Shown here piece by piece: positions 34,451 through 42,866 of a DNA stretch of 64,000 nt (positions are counted from its first letter, which is position 1; each line of letters opens with the position of its first letter). The stretch lies in assembly GCA_964490395.1 (NCBI GenBank), contig CAZBAS010000005.1:17167-81166 (forward strand), read 5' to 3'. This stretch comes from an uncultured Candidatus Saccharibacteria bacterium (lineage in GTDB: Bacteria > Patescibacteriota > Doudnabacteria > UBA920). The notes beneath the pieces are model-generated. The model did not search any database, had not been told where the DNA came from, and saw only the letters and a list, made by a program, of their open reading frames with translations. A program made the position numbers and the translations under genes.

Positions 34451-34534
34451 ATATTATCTTCACCAGCCCACCGTATACTAGTAGTACTGCTAGTTCTAGA
34501 GTACTGGCAGCGATCCTTAAATGAAAGGACGGAT

Positions 34535-34636
34535 ATGGCAAATGCTACCACTCCAAACAAGAGCGCGAAAAAGCAATCCGCAAATAAAAAAGAAGGCGAA
34601 GGTTTTGAATTACTTGAAGATATATTCGACTTCTAA
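34535..34636 (+). CDS. Tiny acidic ORF 1 (33 aa)
   Basis: MANATTPNKSAKKQSANKKEGEGFELLEDIFDF; upstream gaaagga SD; first of three tandem small ORFs with a conserved upstream tta..gaaagga..tatATGGC context. Confidence 0.35.
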   Translation: MANATTPNKSAKKQSANKKEGEGFELLEDIFDF

Positions 34637-34672
34637 ATTCCGCCCGGAACATTAATTGTGAAAGGAATATAT

Positions 34673-34774
34673 ATGGCAGATACTAACGACGATCCTGTAG
34701 AAGATATAATCAATCCTAAAAAAGAAAATACTGGTACCGGCATTGGGGTTATAGATGACCTAAACAAAGCATAG
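34673..34774 (+). CDS. Tiny acidic ORF 2 (33 aa)
   Basis: MADTNDDPVEDIINPKKENTGTGIGVIDDLNKA; same upstream context as ORF 1. Confidence 0.35.
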   Translation: MADTNDDPVEDIINPKKENTGTGIGVIDDLNKA

Positions 34775-34832
34775 CCAGTTAGCCCACTTTACCAGCGATG
34801 GTTAACAGTACTATTAACACGAAAGGAACTAT

Positions 34833-34967
34833 ATGGCTGCAGATGACGACATAGCATCCGCACAAGCGGATGAAGAGGCTGCTCAAAGCGCTTTGGATGA
34901 TGCCAAAGAAGCAGAAGCAAGCGCCCATGAAAGAAAGGCCGCAGAGGTACGCGATAGTGAATCGTAA
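34833..34967 (+). CDS. Tiny acidic ORF 3 (44 aa)
   Basis: MAADDDIASAQADEEAAQSALDDAKEAEASAHERKAAEVRDSES; same upstream context as ORF 1. Confidence 0.35.
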   Translation: MAADDDIASAQADEEAAQSALDDAKEAEASAHERKAAEVRDSES

Positions 34968-35082
34968 GGACGTATTGATACTATATATAACACCGCCTAT
35001 TCAAGCGCAATAGGCGGTGTTGCGTTATTTCCCGATATTTTGCTATAATTGGACAGCCAGTTTTGGCAGCAAAATTGTATAT

Positions 35083-35157
35083 TCGGGAGTAGCTCAGCGG
35101 TAGAGCGGCACGCTGTTAACGTGATGGTCCTGGGTTCGATCCCCAGCTCCCGAGCCA
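35083..35157 (+). tRNA. tRNA-Asn (anticodon GTT), CCA encoded
   Basis: Acceptor tcgggag/ctcccga; D-arm gctcagcggtagagc; anticodon loop ctGTTaa; T-arm ctggg-ttcgatc-cccag; discriminator g, then cca. Confidence 0.85.
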
Positions 35158-35470
35158 ACAAAAAAGTAGTACTTTAGTACTACTTTTTTGTTGGCTCGAT
35201 GAGGAGTGCAGGGATCGAAGGGAACGGTCCCGTACCGCAGGGAATTTCATGCGAATACTTGCAGCATGAAATAGTGGCGGGGTCGCGTTAGGTGAGAACT
35301 GAAACGACCTTAAGGAGTTGAAGTTCCACCGTGGGTGACCAATCCCCAGCTCCCGAGCCAACAAAAATACGTCACCTTTTGGTGGCGTTTTTTTCTTGGC
35401 TCATGGAGGAGCGCAGGGATTGAAGGGAACGGTCCCGTACCACGGGAATTTCATGCGAACACTTAGGGCT
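35150..35470 (+). repeat. Direct repeats of the tRNA-Asn 3' end, long hairpins and a duplicated ~65-nt segment
   Basis: atccccagctcccgagccaacaaaaa recurs at about 35339-35364. Each copy is followed by a long hairpin whose stem includes cgagccaac (gagccaacaaaaaagtagtac-ttt-gtactacttttttgttggctc). The segment ttggctcgatgaggagtgcagggatcgaagggaacggtcccgtacc... is repeated imperfectly at about 35396. Confidence 0.45.
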
Positions 35471-35655
35471 CCCACACTACTTGGGCCTTTAGGTTAAGTA
35501 GGGTGGGAAGAGGAGTAATCCTGAAAGGAATAAGAGTAAGTCTTTCTAAAGTTTACTTACATGACTGCAAGGCATTGCGACGAATTCCAGAATTATAGAA
35601 ACTCGATTCGGCTTTTCTTAACTTCCTTTTTGAACTTAGGAACTTTACGTTCATG

Positions 35656-35685
35656 TTGACAAAAGTACATATTAGTGCTTAAATA
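35656..35685 (+). promoter_or_regulatory. Sigma-70-like promoter upstream of the MAT gene
   Basis: TTGACA, a 17-nt spacer, then TTAAAT. Confidence 0.4.
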
Positions 35686-35709
35686 TATAAGCTGATTTTG
35701 CAGCAAAAC

Positions 35710-35742
35710 AAAAAGAGTTCGCCCGAACTCTTTTATTTTTTG
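35710..35742 (+). terminator. Stem-loop with a T-run inside the MAT leader (possible attenuator)
   Basis: aaaagagttcgcccgaactctttt followed by attttttg, between the predicted promoter and the SD/ATG at 35771. Confidence 0.45.
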
Positions 35743-35770
35743 TTCTTCGACAATCCACAGAGGAGGCGCG

Positions 35771-36997
35771 ATGAATTTCGGTTTTGTAAGTCAACATGGT
35801 CTTGGAAGTTTGCAGCAAGAAGTTATTGAGCGTAAAGGAATTGGGCATCCGGACACCCTAACTGACGCGTTAGCTGAACGTATGTCGGCTCACTACGCCC
35901 AGTACACATTGAAGCATTACGGAGTTATTTTGCACCATAATTTTGACAAGTTACACATACTTGGCGGTGCAACAGAGCTAGATTTTGGCGGTGGTAGGCT
36001 GATACGCCCCATCAGAGTTATTATAAACGGTAGAGCGTCTGCAAGCTTCGCCGGTGAACAACTGCCTGTCCAGTACATTCTGGGCGATGCAGCACGGTCA
36101 TTCTTTCAGGAGCGTTTTCCTGGATTGATTGACCCGGCTCGCGACCTTGAATTTCACTGGCTGGTCAGTACTTCCAGTAGCCCAGGCAGAACTAAGCGGA
36201 CTACTGGGGCGAGAGCATACATGTTTAATCCTCGGACAGTCGCCGAAGTGAAAGGTTACGACGGTCCCTTGGTCAACAACGATACTTCCATGGGGTGCGG
36301 CTACGCGCCGTATTCTATTCTGGAAGCAGCGGTGTTGGGTCTGGAGAGGGATTTGAACAGCAGTGTCCGGAAGGATGAATTCCCATGGCTTGGTACCGAC
36401 ATTAAAGTCATGGCCGTGCGGCAAGATGATCTCATTTCCATTACGGTGTGCTTGCCGCAAATAGCAAGTAAAGTGGCAAGTGAACGCGCGTACCAAGAAA
36501 ATTTGGCTACGTTGGACCGGCATATCAGGAGACAGCTTGCCCGGCTACTTCAAGGCGCGCCGTTCGAACTGGGGTATAACACCCGCGACAACAGGCGTAC
36601 AGGCGATTACTATCTTACTGTCACAGGCACTGCCCTTGAGTCTGGCGATGAAGGAGTAGTGGGTCGCGGTAATCGCATCAACGGTCTTATTACACCATTC
36701 CGACCGATGAACTTGGAAGGGGTGTGTGGTAAGAATCCACTCTACCATACGGGAAAGTTATATAACATAGTGGCGCAGCGAATCGCTGAGCGTATTCACC
36801 GCGAAACTGGCGCGTACTGCGAAGCGTACTTAGTGGGCCAAAGTGGACAAGCGTTGCTTGACCCGTGGTCTGCAACTATACGCAGCGCAGATACTAACTT
36901 GGATGCAGCAACTGCCCAAGCGTGGGCAGTTGAAGAAATACAACAAATTCCTGCTATAACCCAAGCGTTGGTGAAGCAGGAATTGACGTTATGGTAA
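35771..36997 (+). CDS. Archaeal-type S-adenosylmethionine synthetase (methionine adenosyltransferase, MAT)
   Basis: ERKGIGHPD, ILHHNFD, NNDTSMGCGYAP, DIKVM and YYLTVTGTALESGDEGVVGRGNRINGLITPFRPMNLEGVCGKNP...HTGKLYN are collinear with the archaeal MAT family; SD gaggagg upstream. Confidence 0.85.
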   Translation: MNFGFVSQHGLGSLQQEVIERKGIGHPDTLTDALAERMSAHYAQYTLKHYGVILHHNFDKLHILGGATELDFGGGRLIRPIRVIINGRASASFAGEQLPVQYILGDAARSFFQERFPGLIDPARDLEFHWLVSTSSSPGRTKRTTGARAYMFNPRTVAEVKGYDGPLVNNDTSMGCGYAPYSILEAAVLGLERDLNSSVRKDEFPWLGTDIKVMAVRQDDLISITVCLPQIASKVASERAYQENLATLDRHIRRQLARLLQGAPFELGYNTRDNRRTGDYYLTVTGTALESGDEGVVGRGNRINGLITPFRPMNLEGVCGKNPLYHTGKLYNIVAQRIAERIHRETGAYCEAYLVGQSGQALLDPWSATIRSADTNLDAATAQAWAVEEIQQIPAITQALVKQELTLW

Positions 36998-37010
36998 GAA
37001 AGGGAAAACC

Positions 37011-38057
37011 ATGCGCAAAGAACCACAAGACTACTCGCAGGCGCGAGATAGTTTCCTTTTGGAGAGGGGTTGGGCGTGTGCAGTCTGCCCCCGTTGCCAA
37101 AAACCATTTTTTACCAAACAGCGTTATCCATTGAATACGTGTGGCTCATACCGGTGCGAAGGTGGATATGTATTTTTGCAACGCCCCGCACCCAAGATAA
37201 AATTGACTGCCGCAGCGGCGGTAGATCATTTTTGTTTTACGGAGTTTGTTCGTGCGCCGACCATAGATTTGGTTCGGCGTGGCGAGCGGACTTTGTTTGC
37301 AAGCGCAGCTGGTCAAGTTCATGATGCTTGTATCTATGGCGGCGATATTACTATCGCTCCGCAGTGTTCGGTACTGCAGCCGGTTGTAAGGCTACAGTGT
37401 CTGCATGCAATAGATGAGCAAGATGGATTCTCCAGTAGTTTTCTCAACGCAGGGTTGGCTTGGTGGCAAGCGAGTCCTGAGCAGCACTTTCAAGCGTTCG
37501 ACAAGTTGCTCCAGTACTTGTCCCTACACGGAATATGTGTTGGGCACTTGGCGTTGAAACTCGACAGCGCAGAGAATGTGTGGGGCGACCTGCACGTACC
37601 CACGGACAGTCTAAAAATGAATTATGGTGGACTCGAAATTGGCATAGCCAACTTCTTTAACCATATTCAAACACCAAATGGCGAATCAAGCTTTAGCGAC
37701 ATTAGTCTTGGCGTGGAGAGGTTTGTATGGGCTGCGAATAAAAACGGCTCGTACTTTGACGACCTCGCTCCGGTCCAGTATGCTTCTGAGGTAAAAAGAA
37801 GCGTGCTAGACGCGGTACGCACGGCCACTTTGCTTATGGCTTCCGGGCTTACTCCTGGGAGCGTCCATCACGGGCAAAAGCTCCGCCTCATTCTGGGTCA
37901 GCTTCGCGACATTGGGTTCTGCCTTGACTGGTTTGGACTTGTCCGGTACTTCCACCAATTTTGGCGGCAGTTTATCGAACTGAGCCGGACAGAGGTGGAA
38001 TGTTATGAAGTATTAGAGCAAGAGCTAATGCACTTGCGCAATACCAGGCCTAACTAA
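37011..38057 (+). CDS. Hypothetical protein with an N-terminal Cys4 zinc ribbon
   Basis: CAVCPRC...CGSYRC; 348 aa; starts 14 nt after the MAT stop, so operonic. Confidence 0.55.
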   Translation: MRKEPQDYSQARDSFLLERGWACAVCPRCQKPFFTKQRYPLNTCGSYRCEGGYVFLQRPAPKIKLTAAAAVDHFCFTEFVRAPTIDLVRRGERTLFASAAGQVHDACIYGGDITIAPQCSVLQPVVRLQCLHAIDEQDGFSSSFLNAGLAWWQASPEQHFQAFDKLLQYLSLHGICVGHLALKLDSAENVWGDLHVPTDSLKMNYGGLEIGIANFFNHIQTPNGESSFSDISLGVERFVWAANKNGSYFDDLAPVQYASEVKRSVLDAVRTATLLMASGLTPGSVHHGQKLRLILGQLRDIGFCLDWFGLVRYFHQFWRQFIELSRTEVECYEVLEQELMHLRNTRPN

Positions 38058-38066
38058 TTCCATTCC

Positions 38067-38726
38067 ATGACTAACATATTTCTTGGCGGCGGGGGGTCTG
38101 CTATAGACTCCTTGCCGCTCGACCAACACTTTGCCAATCTTTTAGATAAGCAGAAACTGCTTGTCTATATTCCCAACGCCATGACCTCGCGCCCTTTTTC
38201 AGAGTGCATGGAATGGTTTACACATACGTTTGCTCCTTTGGGAGTAAATCGTATAGAAATGTGGGATCGGCTGCAGCCGCAGGCGGATGTTTCCGAGATT
38301 GCGGGAATATATGTGGGCGGCGGCGATACGGGCAGGCTTTTGAAACTGATACGAGAATCGCACTTTTCGGAATACATAGTAGAAGCGGTCAAGTCAGGCG
38401 TGCCAGTCTACGGCGGTAGCGCTGGGGCTATTGTACTTGGCCGTGACATTCGCACTGCGCCAGAAGCGGTTAATCTATCCTTGCAAGATGCAACAGGGTT
38501 AGGTTTGCTTGCTGATGAGTGCGTCGCGTGTCACTATGTCCCAGAACGAGAAACCAGTGTTTGTCACGCTGTATCGTCATTGGGCTACTCTATAATTGCT
38601 ATTCCAGAAAAGTCCGGTTTGTATTATAACGGTCAAGTATATTCGGTTTTCGGAACCGAGTCTGCTTGGCTTTTTTCTATGGATGAGAAAAAAGAACTGC
38701 TGTCAGGGGAGAGTTATACGCTGTAA
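38067..38726 (+). CDS. Peptidase S51 family protein (dipeptidase E / cyanophycinase-like)
   Basis: FLGGGGS, IYVGGGDTGRLL and YGGSAGAIV motifs of the S51 Ser hydrolase family. Confidence 0.7.
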   Translation: MTNIFLGGGGSAIDSLPLDQHFANLLDKQKLLVYIPNAMTSRPFSECMEWFTHTFAPLGVNRIEMWDRLQPQADVSEIAGIYVGGGDTGRLLKLIRESHFSEYIVEAVKSGVPVYGGSAGAIVLGRDIRTAPEAVNLSLQDATGLGLLADECVACHYVPERETSVCHAVSSLGYSIIAIPEKSGLYYNGQVYSVFGTESAWLFSMDEKKELLSGESYTL

Positions 38727-38762
38727 TAATTATTGTATTTTATAAATTTAATTGAATTACCT

Positions 38763-40760: not shown

Positions 40761-42866
40761 ATGGCCTACCAAAATTACGAGAAAAATGAGAGTAAGTTGT
40801 CTCACCATAAGCAGTTTAAGAAGGAGTTAAAACCTCCGCTCCTTACGCTTAATATGACAACCTATTCTTGGATAAATGACCGCATGCCTGAAATGTTATG
40901 GGCGGTTTTAGTCATTGGGAATATAGAAAGAGAAATTGCCTTAAAATTTTTCAGAACTATTGCCGAATTTGTACATAAGAATCCTGACTGTTCAGATGTA
41001 ACACTTACTGGTATTAGCAAATTTCATGAAGAAAAGAAAAAGCAATTTATTCAACTTGCCACAAGCTGGTCAGAGGAAGTAAAAAATGTCTTAAAGCCTT
41101 TGATGTGGCTTGAGCAGCTACCAGCAAAAGAAGTATGGAAGGAATTGCTAGGAGAACCTGCAAGGAAGGATGAAGATTTTAATAAACTAGCCAATGGCGT
41201 ATCTAAGACTTACTGGCACCAATCAGAAGCAGCTACTGACTGTAGATGGATTAAATTTTTGTGCCAGATACTAGGCGGAAAAATGTCTTTTACAAAAGGT
41301 ATGGAAGATAAAGTAAAAGGTGTTTTAGAATATCCAAACTACGGAGATTTGAAAACTATAAGACCCTTTATAAGGGCATCTGAAATTATGCCATCCGACC
41401 CTGATGCGGATAAACCTTTTCATAGTGATTGGTCATTTAATTTTTGGCAACAATGTTTTGATGAAACTGGTTGTCTCCCAGAAGAGAAGGTTAGTCAGAA
41501 AATCCGAAAGAAACAAGACGATTTGTTTCAAGAAATGAAAAAATCAAGAGAGTTTAGATTAAAGCAAATAGTTGATGTAAGACATAATTTAATTGAACAC
41601 TCGATTAAGGAGTCAAAAATTTCTTCTGTAGATGCAAGACATGAAGGAAGTTTTGGTTTGGCTTTGTATGGTCTCTCTCTGTATATTGAAATTATTTTTT
41701 ATACAGTATCACTCTCGATTACGGGCAGATTGGCTATGCGAGCTTTAGTAGAGTGTTATATAACATTTAAGTATTTATTACAAAAGGAAAAAAGTGAGCC
41801 AGCCATATGGGACACTTATCGCGAGTACGGAAACGGGCAACTAAAGCTGCTTTATCTAAAACTCAAAGAAATGAACCAGAAGATAGGAAGTATTGAAATT
41901 GATACACTAGACGAATTAGCGAATGAAGATAAATCGGTTGAGTTTGTTCCTATAAATCTAGGGAATTGGGACTCTGAAAATTTGAGAAAAATGGGCGCAG
42001 AAGCTGGGCTTAAAGATTTATACGATAAATACTATAGCTATACATCTGGTTTCATGCATGGAAGCTGGGGAGCTGTCAGAGAGTCTATTTACCAAAAGTG
42101 CGTAAATCCTCTTCATAGATTTCACAGAATACCTATTTTTGATATGCCTTTAATGTCGAGTGTGGTTGACGATGCAACAGAAATTATGAATGGCATCCTA
42201 GAATGTTTGTCAGTAGCATATCCTAAATTTGATGATAGATTATTAAATTCTGATAGCCTAGACAAAACAGAGGCTAAGTCAGAAGAACTAAGCCCTCAAC
42301 CAATTAAAGCAAGTAGCATCGCTAAGGGAATACATCATAGCATTAAAAATGCGGAAAGATATGTTCAGTCAGCTAAGGAGCTGAAAACTAAAGATAAACA
42401 GGCTGCCTATCTCTTATTTCTTTATGCGCTAGAAGAAATGGGAAAAGTTCCTTTAATTTGGAATGCTTTATTTCATACAGAAACAAAGAGTGAATGGCTA
42501 AAGTGGCAAAGAAGGTTCAAAGACCATGCAGAAAAATTTTGGTTTAGTAGAGATCTTGAAGATTTTGATGAGAGGAAATTATCTAACAAAGAAAATAAGG
42601 CGGAAACAAAAATGGCAGCTAAAAAACTAGATGTATCTTACGTTAGCTTTGATGGTGAATTTCAACCCCCTGAAGATGTAGGCGAAGAGGAATTGGCGAA
42701 GATAGAGTTAAATTGCGAACGCAGAATCGCGTTCTTAAAAAGAAATCATAAATCAATTGAAGAGGACGAAAAAAGAATTGTAGAAGGTTATAAAAAAATG
42801 AAAGGTCTGACACAGGAAGAATTGAAAGAAATGATCAAGAACATGCAAAAAGAAAAATCGGATTAG
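40761..42866 (+). CDS. Large AT-rich, Lys-rich orphan protein (701 aa), unknown function
   Basis: About 35% GC against about 48% in its flanks; no family recognised; internal R-x5-H (VRHNLIEH) and a C-terminal K/E-rich coiled-coil-like tail. Confidence 0.6.
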   Translation: MAYQNYEKNESKLSHHKQFKKELKPPLLTLNMTTYSWINDRMPEMLWAVLVIGNIEREIALKFFRTIAEFVHKNPDCSDVTLTGISKFHEEKKKQFIQLATSWSEEVKNVLKPLMWLEQLPAKEVWKELLGEPARKDEDFNKLANGVSKTYWHQSEAATDCRWIKFLCQILGGKMSFTKGMEDKVKGVLEYPNYGDLKTIRPFIRASEIMPSDPDADKPFHSDWSFNFWQQCFDETGCLPEEKVSQKIRKKQDDLFQEMKKSREFRLKQIVDVRHNLIEHSIKESKISSVDARHEGSFGLALYGLSLYIEIIFYTVSLSITGRLAMRALVECYITFKYLLQKEKSEPAIWDTYREYGNGQLKLLYLKLKEMNQKIGSIEIDTLDELANEDKSVEFVPINLGNWDSENLRKMGAEAGLKDLYDKYYSYTSGFMHGSWGAVRESIYQKCVNPLHRFHRIPIFDMPLMSSVVDDATEIMNGILECLSVAYPKFDDRLLNSDSLDKTEAKSEELSPQPIKASSIAKGIHHSIKNAERYVQSAKELKTKDKQAAYLLFLYALEEMGKVPLIWNALFHTETKSEWLKWQRRFKDHAEKFWFSRDLEDFDERKLSNKENKAETKMAAKKLDVSYVSFDGEFQPPEDVGEEELAKIELNCERRIAFLKRNHKSIEEDEKRIVEGYKKMKGLTQEELKEMIKNMQKEKSD

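What the first reader, a model, noticed from the sequence alone, without database searches (positions are those of the whole stretch)
35083..35470. tRNA-Asn followed by repeated copies of its own 3' end embedded in long hairpins
After tRNA-Asn(GTT), the 26-nt string atccccagctcccgagccaacaaaaa recurs about 200 bp downstream. Each copy is followed by a long hairpin whose stem contains the tRNA 3' end (the first has a perfect 21-bp stem, gagccaacaaaaaagtagtac/gtactacttttttgttggctc). A ~65-nt segment starting ttggctcgatgaggagtgcagggatcgaaggg is duplicated imperfectly. This could be an integration/excision scar (stacked attR-like sites at a tRNA), a tRNA-like structured ncRNA, or a permuted/two-piece tmRNA-like gene. 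The second copy ends in a degenerate T-arm plus acceptor.
Basis: seen in the sequence. Interest (0 to 1): 0.6.

Follow-up and report, generated by a model that had tools for sequence, protein, structure and literature searches.

The report
Stacked tRNA-Asn 3'-end copies with hairpins
Downstream of the tRNA-Asn gene of a small-genome (CPR/Saccharibacteria-like) bacterium lies a gene-less, tightly folding ~200-bp module bracketed by a second copy of the tRNA's 3' end; it most likely records DNA recombining into this tRNA gene at the edge of a strain-variable gene region, and it is not a tmRNA.

Summary
tRNA-Asn(GTT) lies at 35083-35157, and its last 19 nt plus 7 trailer nt recur exactly at 35342-35367. 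Each copy forms the 5' arm of an ~80-nt imperfect palindrome (35137-35217, 35340-35422) whose 3' arm is antisense to the tRNA 3' end. About 77 nt after each hairpin tip is repeated at 88% identity.

ARAGORN and Rfam find only the tRNA, so a tmRNA or permuted tmRNA is rejected.

The locus could be recovered in only three allelic forms, all from one species. All three have tRNA, hairpin 1, a ~125-nt folded interior and a second copy. They diverge from each other at the end of the second copy. The window carries 3.4 kb there (a SAM-synthetase module) that one relative lacks. A third strain has a GIY-YIG gene inserted on the 5' side with a duplicated tRNA 5' end.

No recombinase gene was detected in the 64 kb, there is no third copy, and no empty-site allele was found.

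The interior shows one hairpin with 5 of 9 compensatory pairs and fold z-scores near -5.

Best reading (about 0.4): stacked footprints of integration or recombination at the tRNA-Asn T-loop, each unit bringing its own tRNA 3' end and terminator. A co-transcribed structured RNA (about 0.3) is not excluded. Interest is moderate.

The parts
35041..35049 (+). Extended -10 promoter-like element (TGcTATAAT) in front of tRNA-Asn
   Evidence: Read from the sequence. It is conserved in L003 and L007. The consensus scan did not report it because the -35 hexamer is weak.
35083..35157 (+). tRNA-Asn(GTT) with encoded CCA
   Evidence: ARAGORN; Rfam RF00005 at 65.4 bits. It is identical in L003 and L007.
35139..35164 (+). 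Core copy 1: T-loop position 58 to CCA plus the 7-nt trailer ACAAAAA
   Evidence: Exact 26-nt direct repeat.
35137..35217 (.). Palindrome 1. Its 5' arm is the tRNA 3' end. Its tip is hairpin 1 (23 bp perfect, 35151-35198). Its 3' arm is antisense to the tRNA 3' end: GTTGGCTCG-atga-GGAG-tgca-GGGATCG, 35190-35217.
   Evidence: The tip loop differs between strains: TTTA, TTCG and TAAA. The scan does not report it as a canonical terminator.
35218..35340 (+). Interior of module A. Pa is 35220-35231. Pb is 35244-35252/35264-35272 and covaries. Pc is 35281-35340 and is invariant in the three strains.
   Evidence: RNA-fold z = -4.7 on the + strand and -4.1 on the - strand. In the consensus fold, 5 of 9 Pb pairs are compensated.
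35331..35367 (+). Degenerate T-arm (GTGGG / 9-nt loop / CCCAG) plus core copy 2 (35342-35367). It has A at 35341 where the tRNA has G.
   Evidence: In L003 and L007 this copy is cut to GATCCCCAGCTCC(C), after which the strains diverge.
35340..35422 (.). Palindrome 2. It consists of core copy 2, a different tip that is a canonical terminator (35369-35388 plus a T-run), and the antisense arm CTTGGCTC-atgga-GGAGC-gca-GGGATTG.
   Evidence: The base pair G-C of palindrome 1 is A-T here, changed on both sides.
35389..35464 (+). Unit B: a truncated second copy of the 5' part of the module. Homology ends in the loop of Pb.
   Evidence: 77 nt at 88% identity to 35184-35260. Weak match to the module model (17.5 bits). 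The sequence after it is not structured (z = -1.2).
35355..38756 (+). Segment present in the window but absent from strain L003. It contains the end of copy 2, hairpin 2, unit B, a leader, archaeal-type SAM synthetase, a 348-aa protein and an S51 peptidase.
   Evidence: blastn of the window against L003; Pfam. The same three-gene module occurs without a tRNA in L010.

Best explanation
The locus is a recombination footprint at the 3' end of tRNA-Asn.

A ~203-bp gene-less module (35139/35165-35341) sits between the tRNA's present 3' end, which acts like attL, and a displaced older copy of that end, which acts like attR (35342-35367). This is the topology left when DNA that carries its own copy of a tRNA 3' end recombines into the T-loop of the gene. 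The incoming piece supplies the new 3' end and a hairpin behind it, and pushes the previous 3' end with its terminator downstream.

In the window this has happened at least twice. Module A is complete. Unit B (35368-35464) is a truncated older or foreign one that still lies beside the terminator of the 3' end it once served.

Shown:
- the repeat, the palindromes, and the strain breakpoints at copy 2;
- the absence of a detectable recombinase gene.

Inferred:
- that the recombination was site-specific, by a recombinase supplied in trans or since lost;
- that the modules are now inert or non-autonomous.

The antisense arms are intrinsic to each unit, since each palindrome is internally consistent. 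Why they exist is not explained by a classical double-stranded att site.
For: - The identity block begins inside the T-loop (position 57/58) and runs through CCA into the trailer. From my own knowledge, this is the usual form of att cores of tRNA-targeting integrases (Williams 2002).
- The three recoverable alleles are collinear (97.5-98.8% identity) up to ...CCCCAGCTCC(C) of copy 2. Each then continues differently. The window carries a 3.4-kb segment there that L003 lacks.
- The region downstream is a strain-variable run of small accessory genes.
- In L007 the same tRNA gene has a GIY-YIG ORF inserted on the 5' side with a duplicated tRNA 5' fragment. Mobile DNA that duplicates the ends of this tRNA therefore does act at this locus.
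- Palindrome 1 reads GATCCC...GGGATC and palindrome 2 reads AATCCC...GGGATT. This is expected if each unit brought its own arm pair.
- Stacked elements separated by partial tRNA copies, together with degenerate remnants, are described for tycheposons (10.1101/2020.12.28.424599). tRNA fragments left by integration are described in PMC9897764.
Against: - No integrase, transposase or other recombinase was found among the ORFs of at least 120 aa scanned across the 64-kb window (Pfam, plus the precomputed Pfam annotation of the 97.5%-identical stretch of L003; PHROGs).
- There is no third or distal core copy.
- The right end of the 3.4-kb window-specific segment has no core repeat.
- No allele lacking module A was found, so its mobility is not shown.
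- No phage, plasmid or viral contig carries the core or the module.
- The interior is more structured than an att arm needs to be, and one hairpin covaries.
Confidence: 0.42

Rival explanations
1. The module is a structured non-coding RNA co-transcribed with tRNA-Asn. Transcription from the tRNA promoter reads through hairpin 1, which is an AU-rich tip with its U-run paired to an A-run. It then produces a closed three-hairpin domain whose closing helix P1 pairs the antisense strand with copy 2, and it stops at the next terminator. The long duplex of hairpin 1 could be an RNase III-type processing site that separates the tRNA from the RNA.
For: - All three alleles fold to the same architecture: P1, Pa, Pb, Pc, then a terminator-like hairpin. 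Whole-transcript z-scores are -6.3 to -9.7.
- Interior z-scores are -4.5 to -5.0 on the + strand against -2.5 to -4.1 on the - strand.
- Pb keeps 9 bp with 5 pairs changed on both sides between allele types, and with G-U pairs that work only on the + strand.
- P1 is extended by different sequences in each strain. L007 has GGAGGAGC/GCTCCTCC, and column pair 6-159 is G-C in L003 and A-U in L007.
- Hairpin 1 is not called as a terminator, whereas hairpin 2 is.
Against: - There is no Rfam match.
- Only three closely related alleles exist, so most pairs never vary and covariation rests on a single hairpin.
- P1 does not need to copy the tRNA sequence for an RNA to fold.
- The antisense arm is predicted to trap the tRNA 3' end: the palindrome state is 13-20 kcal/mol below the cloverleaf state. 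That would harm the tRNA rather than help it.
- In the window the A at 35341 mismatches P1 but matches palindrome 2.
- No expression data are available.
Confidence: 0.28
2. No mobile element and no function are involved. The copies arose by unequal or illegitimate recombination between diverged alleles of the same tRNA-Asn locus, possibly stimulated by homing-endonuclease breaks. The hairpins are ordinary A-tract/T-tract bidirectional terminators, lengthened into the tRNA 3' end by template-switch copying.
For: - The similarity is mosaic. Unit B starts like the L007 allele and continues like window module A. The 5' half of module A is heavily diverged between alleles, whereas the following ~76 nt, up to the single A/G difference just before copy 2, are identical.
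- Other terminators in the window have the same A-tract/stem/T-tract form (read).
- The 23-bp perfect palindrome is the kind of product expected from a template switch (inference).
- A GIY-YIG nuclease gene sits at this tRNA in L007.
Against: - The same bulges and internal loops recur in both palindromes while the tips differ completely. This indicates inheritance under constraint, not fresh copying.
- The Pb hairpin covaries.
- The repeat boundary falls in the T-loop as at att sites.
Confidence: 0.17
3. The module is a miniature non-autonomous integrative element whose attachment site is a folded single-stranded hairpin that mimics the double-stranded 3' end of the tRNA-Asn gene. This resembles integron attC sites or the CTX-phage attP, and the element would be recombined by a tyrosine recombinase supplied in trans.
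For: - The integrated topology matches one-strand exchange with a hairpin site. There is a hybrid site, tip and second arm at one end, and a lone hybrid site at the other (inference, and from the mechanism described in PMC3442271 and PMC4792948).
- The stem base is conserved with fixed bulges, and the tip is freely variable, as in attC.
Against: - No recombinase was found.
- The R''/R' boxes only approximate the attC consensus: AGCCAAC and GTTGGCT, each with one mismatch.
- The hairpin energies show no strand asymmetry.
- L003 and L007 lack the second palindrome.
- The element is single-copy in all data available.
Confidence: 0.1
4. The region is a tmRNA, a permuted two-piece tmRNA, or a second tRNA-like gene.
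For: Copy 2 ends in a degenerate T-arm, an acceptor 3' strand and GCCA.
Against: - ARAGORN finds no tmRNA.
- Rfam tmRNA_permuted scores 11.6 bits against a gathering score of 47, with E = 6.8. There is no second tRNA hit at E up to 10.
- The acceptor has G3:C70, not the G3:U70 needed for alanine charging.
- There is no similarity to the tRNA's 5' 56 nt.
Confidence: 0.01

Closest known systems
attL/attR direct repeats and remnants of tRNA-targeting integrative elements (P4-type islands at tRNA-Asn; tycheposon arrays in Prochlorococcus)
   Same: - A direct repeat of the tRNA 3' portion that starts in the T-loop.
- The functional tRNA is rebuilt by the insert.
- An older copy is pushed outward.
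- The site lies next to a strain-variable gene region.
- Partial copies are stacked.
   Different: - The bracketed DNA is only ~180 bp and has no genes.
- No recombinase gene was detected in the 64-kb window, and there is no distal repeat.
- Each copy is the arm of an ~80-nt palindrome with an antisense copy of the tRNA end.
- The interior is strongly folded.
Folded single-stranded recombination sites (integron attC; CTX-phage attP hairpin)
   Same: - An imperfect palindrome with a conserved stem base, fixed bulges and a variable tip.
- The arrangement after insertion: a palindrome at one end and a single site at the other.
   Different: - The target is a tRNA gene, not attI or dif.
- No IntI- or Xer-linked context was seen.
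- The consensus boxes are only approximated.
- There is no evidence for a single-stranded intermediate.
Intrinsic (bidirectional) transcription terminators behind tRNA genes
   Same: - An A-tract, a stem-loop and a T-tract.
- Hairpin 2 fits the consensus.
- The position is directly after the 3' end of a tRNA.
   Different: - The stems extend ~25 nt further into the T-arm and acceptor strand.
- Hairpin 1 lacks a free U-run and a GC-rich stem.
- The repeat of ~77 nt beyond the hairpin is not terminator sequence.
Free-standing GIY-YIG homing-endonuclease insertions
   Same: In strain L007 a GIY-YIG ORF is inserted in the same tRNA gene region with duplication of the tRNA 5' end. This mirrors the 3'-end duplication seen here.
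   Different: - The 3' modules encode no protein.
- The GIY-YIG insertion is absent from the window.

Membership tests
att sites of a tRNA-integrating element | Direct repeat identical to the 3' part of the tRNA gene, beginning in the T- or anticodon loop and reaching the 3' end | tested here: met
   A 26-nt exact repeat from T-loop position 58 through CCA plus 7 nt. In L003 and L007 the repeat is 13-14 nt, from position 57.
att sites of a tRNA-integrating element | The repeats bracket DNA that is present in some strains and absent in others | tested here: inconclusive
   Strain-specific DNA starts at the end of copy 2. However, module A is present in all three alleles, and the 3.4-kb segment has no repeat at its far end.
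att sites of a tRNA-integrating element | Integrase or recombinase gene inside or next to the bracketed DNA | tested here: not met
   No recombinase domain in the ORFs of at least 120 aa scanned across the 64 kb (Pfam; precomputed Pfam for the near-identical L003 stretch; PHROGs).
att sites of a tRNA-integrating element | Excised circle or empty site detectable | not testable with these tools
   This needs read-level data from DRR235452/3, SRR24788853, SRR12487046 and SRP286056.
tmRNA / permuted tmRNA | Recognised by ARAGORN or the Rfam tmRNA models, with a tag reading frame | tested here: not met
   ARAGORN finds none. tmRNA_permuted scores 11.6 bits against 47.
tmRNA / permuted tmRNA | Alanine-type acceptor stem (G3:U70) | tested here: not met
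   The acceptor is UCGGGAG/CUCCCGA, giving G3:C70 (read).
tRNA gene or pseudogene (second copy) | Cloverleaf detectable, or homology to the whole tRNA | tested here: not met
   There is one tRNA hit only at E up to 10. Alignment of the interior to tRNA positions 1-56 scores no better than shuffles.
Intrinsic terminator | GC-containing stem followed by a free U-run | tested here: inconclusive
   Hairpin 2 (35369-35388) meets the criterion. Hairpin 1 is not reported.
Integron attC-type folded site | Imperfect palindrome with R''/R' boxes (RYYYAAC / GTTRRRY), extrahelical bases, a variable centre, and an integron integrase nearby | tested here: not met
   The palindrome form and variable centre are present. 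The boxes AGCCAAC and GTTGGCT each have one mismatch. No integrase was found.
MITE or other dispersed repeat | Multiple copies, terminal inverted repeats and a target-site duplication | tested here: not met
   It is single-locus in the window and in 147 kb of related DNA. No target-site duplication is seen.
Any described RNA family (Rfam 15) | Covariance-model match at or near the gathering score | tested here: not met
   Only the tRNA matches. The remaining hits are hairpin-shaped chance matches to miRNA models.

The most novel reading that the evidence does not exclude
The ~200-bp module is a functional unit of a kind not yet described. One possibility is a miniature integrative element that presents a folded hairpin mimic of the tRNA-Asn 3' end as its attachment site. 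The other is a tRNA-linked structured RNA whose closing helix copies the tRNA 3' end and whose 5' strand is antisense to it, so that it can switch between sequestering and freeing the tRNA 3' end.
Probability: 0.15. Interest if true: 0.75.

Novelty: new variant of a known kind. Interest (0 to 1): 0.4.

Why it matters
If the footprint reading holds, this locus shows how a streamlined CPR genome with no visible recombinase still turns over genes at a tRNA hotspot. Modules carry their own tRNA end and terminator, and an archaeal-type SAM-synthetase operon is among the swapped cargo.

If the module is itself functional, as a folded att site or as an RNA antisense to its own tRNA, it would be a new type of tRNA-linked element. 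It could be tested directly, because three natural alleles with compensatory changes already exist.

Tried and rejected
**Rejected readings**
- tmRNA or permuted tmRNA: rejected.
- Second tRNA or pseudogene: rejected.
- Group I/II intron, ribozyme, T-box, Y RNA or riboswitch: no Rfam match at E up to 10 in 34900-35800.
- Assembly chimera: rejected, because independent contigs span each junction.
- Dispersed repeat or MITE: no other copy in the window by blastn-short, nor in 147 kb of related DNA by covariance model.
- Small ORFs across the repeats (for example 35335-35466): not conserved between unit A and unit B, so dismissed on reading.

**Searches that found nothing**
- Prophage or phage attP: the core and module motifs are absent from IMG/VR. 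The 39 hits to a 16-mer are all chance matches inside high-GC coding regions.
- blastn against phage and plasmid records found nothing.
- Wider relatives: the genome-collection scan found only L007. The metagenome scan returned one chance hit, L008.
- Synteny does not extend further. Helicase homologues at 79-80% identity have no tRNA-Asn downstream.

**Look-ups that failed**
- Five exact-protein look-ups found no record or no new allele.
- The homology search with the 44-aa peptide found nothing.

Full report
**What is there.**
- The window is a chromosome segment of a Patescibacteria/CPR bacterium. The nearest helicase homologues are from Doudnabacteria and Patescibacteria MAGs. The one species-representative genome with the same locus is labelled Candidatus Saccharibacteria.
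- ARAGORN and Rfam find a single RNA gene, tRNA-Asn(GTT), at 35083-35157.
- The 26 nt from T-loop position 58 through CCA plus the trailer ACAAAAA (35139-35164) recur exactly at 35342-35367. No shuffle produced a match.
- Each copy is the 5' arm of an ~80-nt imperfect palindrome, at 35137-35217 and 35340-35422. The 3' arm is antisense to the tRNA end in three blocks: GTTGGCTC(G), GGAG(C) and GGGAT(C/T)G. A bulge (ATGA or ATGGA) and an internal loop sit at the same places in both palindromes.
- The two tips are unrelated. One is a 23-bp perfect AU-rich hairpin; the other is a canonical terminator at 35369-35388.
- After each palindrome, ~45 nt are shared (GAAGGGAACGGTCCCGTACC...TTTCATGCGAAyACTT). 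Overall, 77 nt match at 88% identity.

**What it is not.**
- No tmRNA is called.
- With relaxed thresholds, the only matches other than the tRNA are hairpin-shaped chance hits to miRNA models and an 11.6-bit match to permuted tmRNA, whose gathering score is 47.
- The acceptor is G3:C70.
- The DNA before copy 2 has a degenerate T-arm (GTGGG / 9-nt loop / CCCAG), but otherwise shows no similarity to the tRNA body.
- It is not an assembly artefact.
- It is not a dispersed repeat.

**Relatives.**
- Only three allelic versions could be recovered, all from one species: the window (with identical Logan contigs L001 and L002), L003 (with L004), and L007. Scans of the genome, metagenome and viral collections, and searches of phage and plasmid records, gave nothing else that was real.
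- All three alleles have the same order: promoter, tRNA, hairpin 1, antisense arm, a ~125-nt interior, and a second copy of the tRNA end.
- They are 97.5-98.8% identical on both sides, but differ sharply in three respects:
  - (i) The loop of hairpin 1 reads TTTA, TTCG or TAAA.
  - (ii) The 5' half of the interior is heavily diverged between the window type and the L003/L007 type, whereas the following ~76 nt, up to the single A/G difference just before copy 2, are identical.
  - (iii) The sequence changes directly after ...CCCCAGCTCC(C) of copy 2. The window continues with the rest of the tRNA end, hairpin 2, unit B and a 3.4-kb segment (archaeal-type SAM synthetase, a 348-aa protein and an S51 peptidase). 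L003 and L007 each continue with different short sequences, a terminator-like hairpin and a glyoxalase gene.
- The SAM-synthetase triad is a portable module. It is found without any tRNA in L010.
- In L007, an 82-aa GIY-YIG ORF (Pfam E = 2.5e-14) lies between the promoter and the tRNA. Its stop codon is inside the tRNA 5' end. A duplicated and interrupted tRNA 5' fragment lies upstream of it.

**Structure.**
- As RNA, the transcript downstream of the tRNA folds in all three alleles into hairpin 1 followed by a closed domain. Helix P1 (antisense strand with copy 2) encloses three hairpins, Pa, Pb and Pc. Whole-transcript z-scores are -6.3 to -9.7.
- The interior alone scores z = -4.5 to -5.0 on the + strand, and -2.5 to -4.1 on the - strand.
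- Pb keeps nine pairs, five of them changed on both sides between allele types. It also has G-U pairs that work only on the + strand.
- P1 is lengthened differently in each strain. In L007 it is GGAGGAGC/GCTCCTCC. One column pair is G-C in L003 and A-U in L007.
- Against a host-beneficial RNA role, the palindrome that traps the tRNA 3' end is predicted to be 13-20 kcal/mol more stable than the state that keeps the cloverleaf.
- Also against the P1 fold, the A at 35341 in the window mismatches P1 but matches the T in the antisense arm of palindrome 2. On this point the local palindromes, not P1, are the self-consistent units.

**Context.**
- No integrase, transposase or other recombinase domain was found among the ORFs of at least 120 aa scanned across the 64 kb (with the precomputed annotation of the near-identical L003 stretch).
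- No further full or partial core copy exists.
- The downstream ~25 kb is a co-oriented run of small accessory genes, including glyoxalase, methyltransferase, RibD_C, DUF1801, a DUF5677-HEPN/AbiV protein, APH and a nucleotidyltransferase. Its content differs between strains.

**Interpretation.**
- The topology is that of DNA recombined into a tRNA gene: a functional tRNA whose 3' part is repeated ~200 bp downstream, a repeat that starts in the T-loop, strain-specific DNA starting at the repeat, and a second truncated unit behind the first.
- It resembles the stacked elements and remnants separated by partial tRNA copies that are described for tycheposons (10.1101/2020.12.28.424599), and the tRNA fragments left by integration (PMC9897764).
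- I therefore favour stacked recombination footprints, in which each unit carries its own tRNA 3' end and a hairpin behind it. Confidence is about 0.42.
- This reading does not account for four things: the antisense arms, the strongly folded and covarying interior, the missing recombinase, and the missing distal repeat.
- A co-transcribed structured RNA (about 0.28) explains the fold and covariation, but not why P1 must copy the tRNA.
- Allele shuffling without any element (about 0.17) explains the mosaic similarity, but not the conserved imperfections of the palindromes.
- A folded single-stranded attachment site of the attC or CTX type (PMC4792948, PMC3442271; about 0.1) would explain both the antisense arms and the topology. 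It has no direct support.
- These readings are not mutually exclusive. With only three closely related alleles and no expression or read-level data, they cannot be separated here.

**Verdict.**
- This is a real and unusual variant of a known phenomenon: repeats of a tRNA end at an integration or recombination hotspot.
- tmRNA is excluded.
- Interest is moderate. It would be higher if the module proves to be mobile through a hairpin site, or to be an RNA antisense to its own tRNA.

Noticed in passing
L007:1790-2140 (minus strand), homologous to window ~35040-35095: An 82-aa GIY-YIG ORF is inserted between the tRNA-Asn promoter and the tRNA. Its stop codon TAG lies inside the tRNA 5' end. Upstream is a duplicated tRNA 5' fragment: TTCGGGAG, then a 35-nt hairpin insert, then GTAGCTCAGCGG. 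It looks like a homing-type cassette that carries a replacement tRNA 5' end.
   Followed up: partly
window 35465-35770: The leader of the archaeal-type SAM-synthetase gene contains a TTGACA-N17-TTAAAT promoter-like site (~35655-35683). A terminator-like hairpin (35711-35734) follows immediately, just before the RBS and ATG. The motif ATAGAAACTCGA (35594-35605) recurs upstream of the homologous gene in L010. No SAM riboswitch or other Rfam family matches. This may be an attenuator or an undescribed leader.
   Followed up: partly
window 35771-38726; L010:6001-9075: SAM synthetase (PF01941), a 348-393-aa protein with no Pfam or PHROGs match, and an S51 peptidase form a conserved three-gene module. 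The module is present in the window, absent from strain L003, and found at an unrelated site in another CPR genome.
   Followed up: partly
window 35062-35074 and 35696-35708: A near-identical 13-mer follows the -10 region of both the tRNA promoter (TTTGGCAGCAAAA) and the SAM-synthetase promoter-like site (TTTTGCAGCAAAA). The tRNA leader at this position is replaced by other sequence in L003 and L007.
   Followed up: no
window 35174-35175 region (loop of hairpin 1); L007 and L003 equivalents: The 4-nt loop is TTTA in the window and its reverse complement TAAA in L007. This is compatible with flipping of the palindrome. In L003 it is TTCG.
   Followed up: no
window 40761-42866: A 701-aa protein has DUF5677 and HEPN/AbiV domains, which makes it a candidate abortive-infection gene. 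It is identical in the window and L003 and lies inside the strain-variable region.
   Followed up: no
L003:12277-12295 and L007:1637-1655: In the L003/L007 allele type, the first interior hairpin also scans as a terminator on the strand opposite to the tRNA (GTTCCGC...GCGGAAC followed by CGCTCTTTTC). The window allele does not have this.
   Followed up: no
window 34521-34967: Several very small ORFs lie between the DEAD-box helicase and the tRNA: two of 33 aa and one acidic, alanine-rich ORF of 44 aa. They are called as genes in the Logan contigs. The 44-aa ORF is followed by a strong terminator at 34988-35022. Their function is unknown.
   Followed up: no
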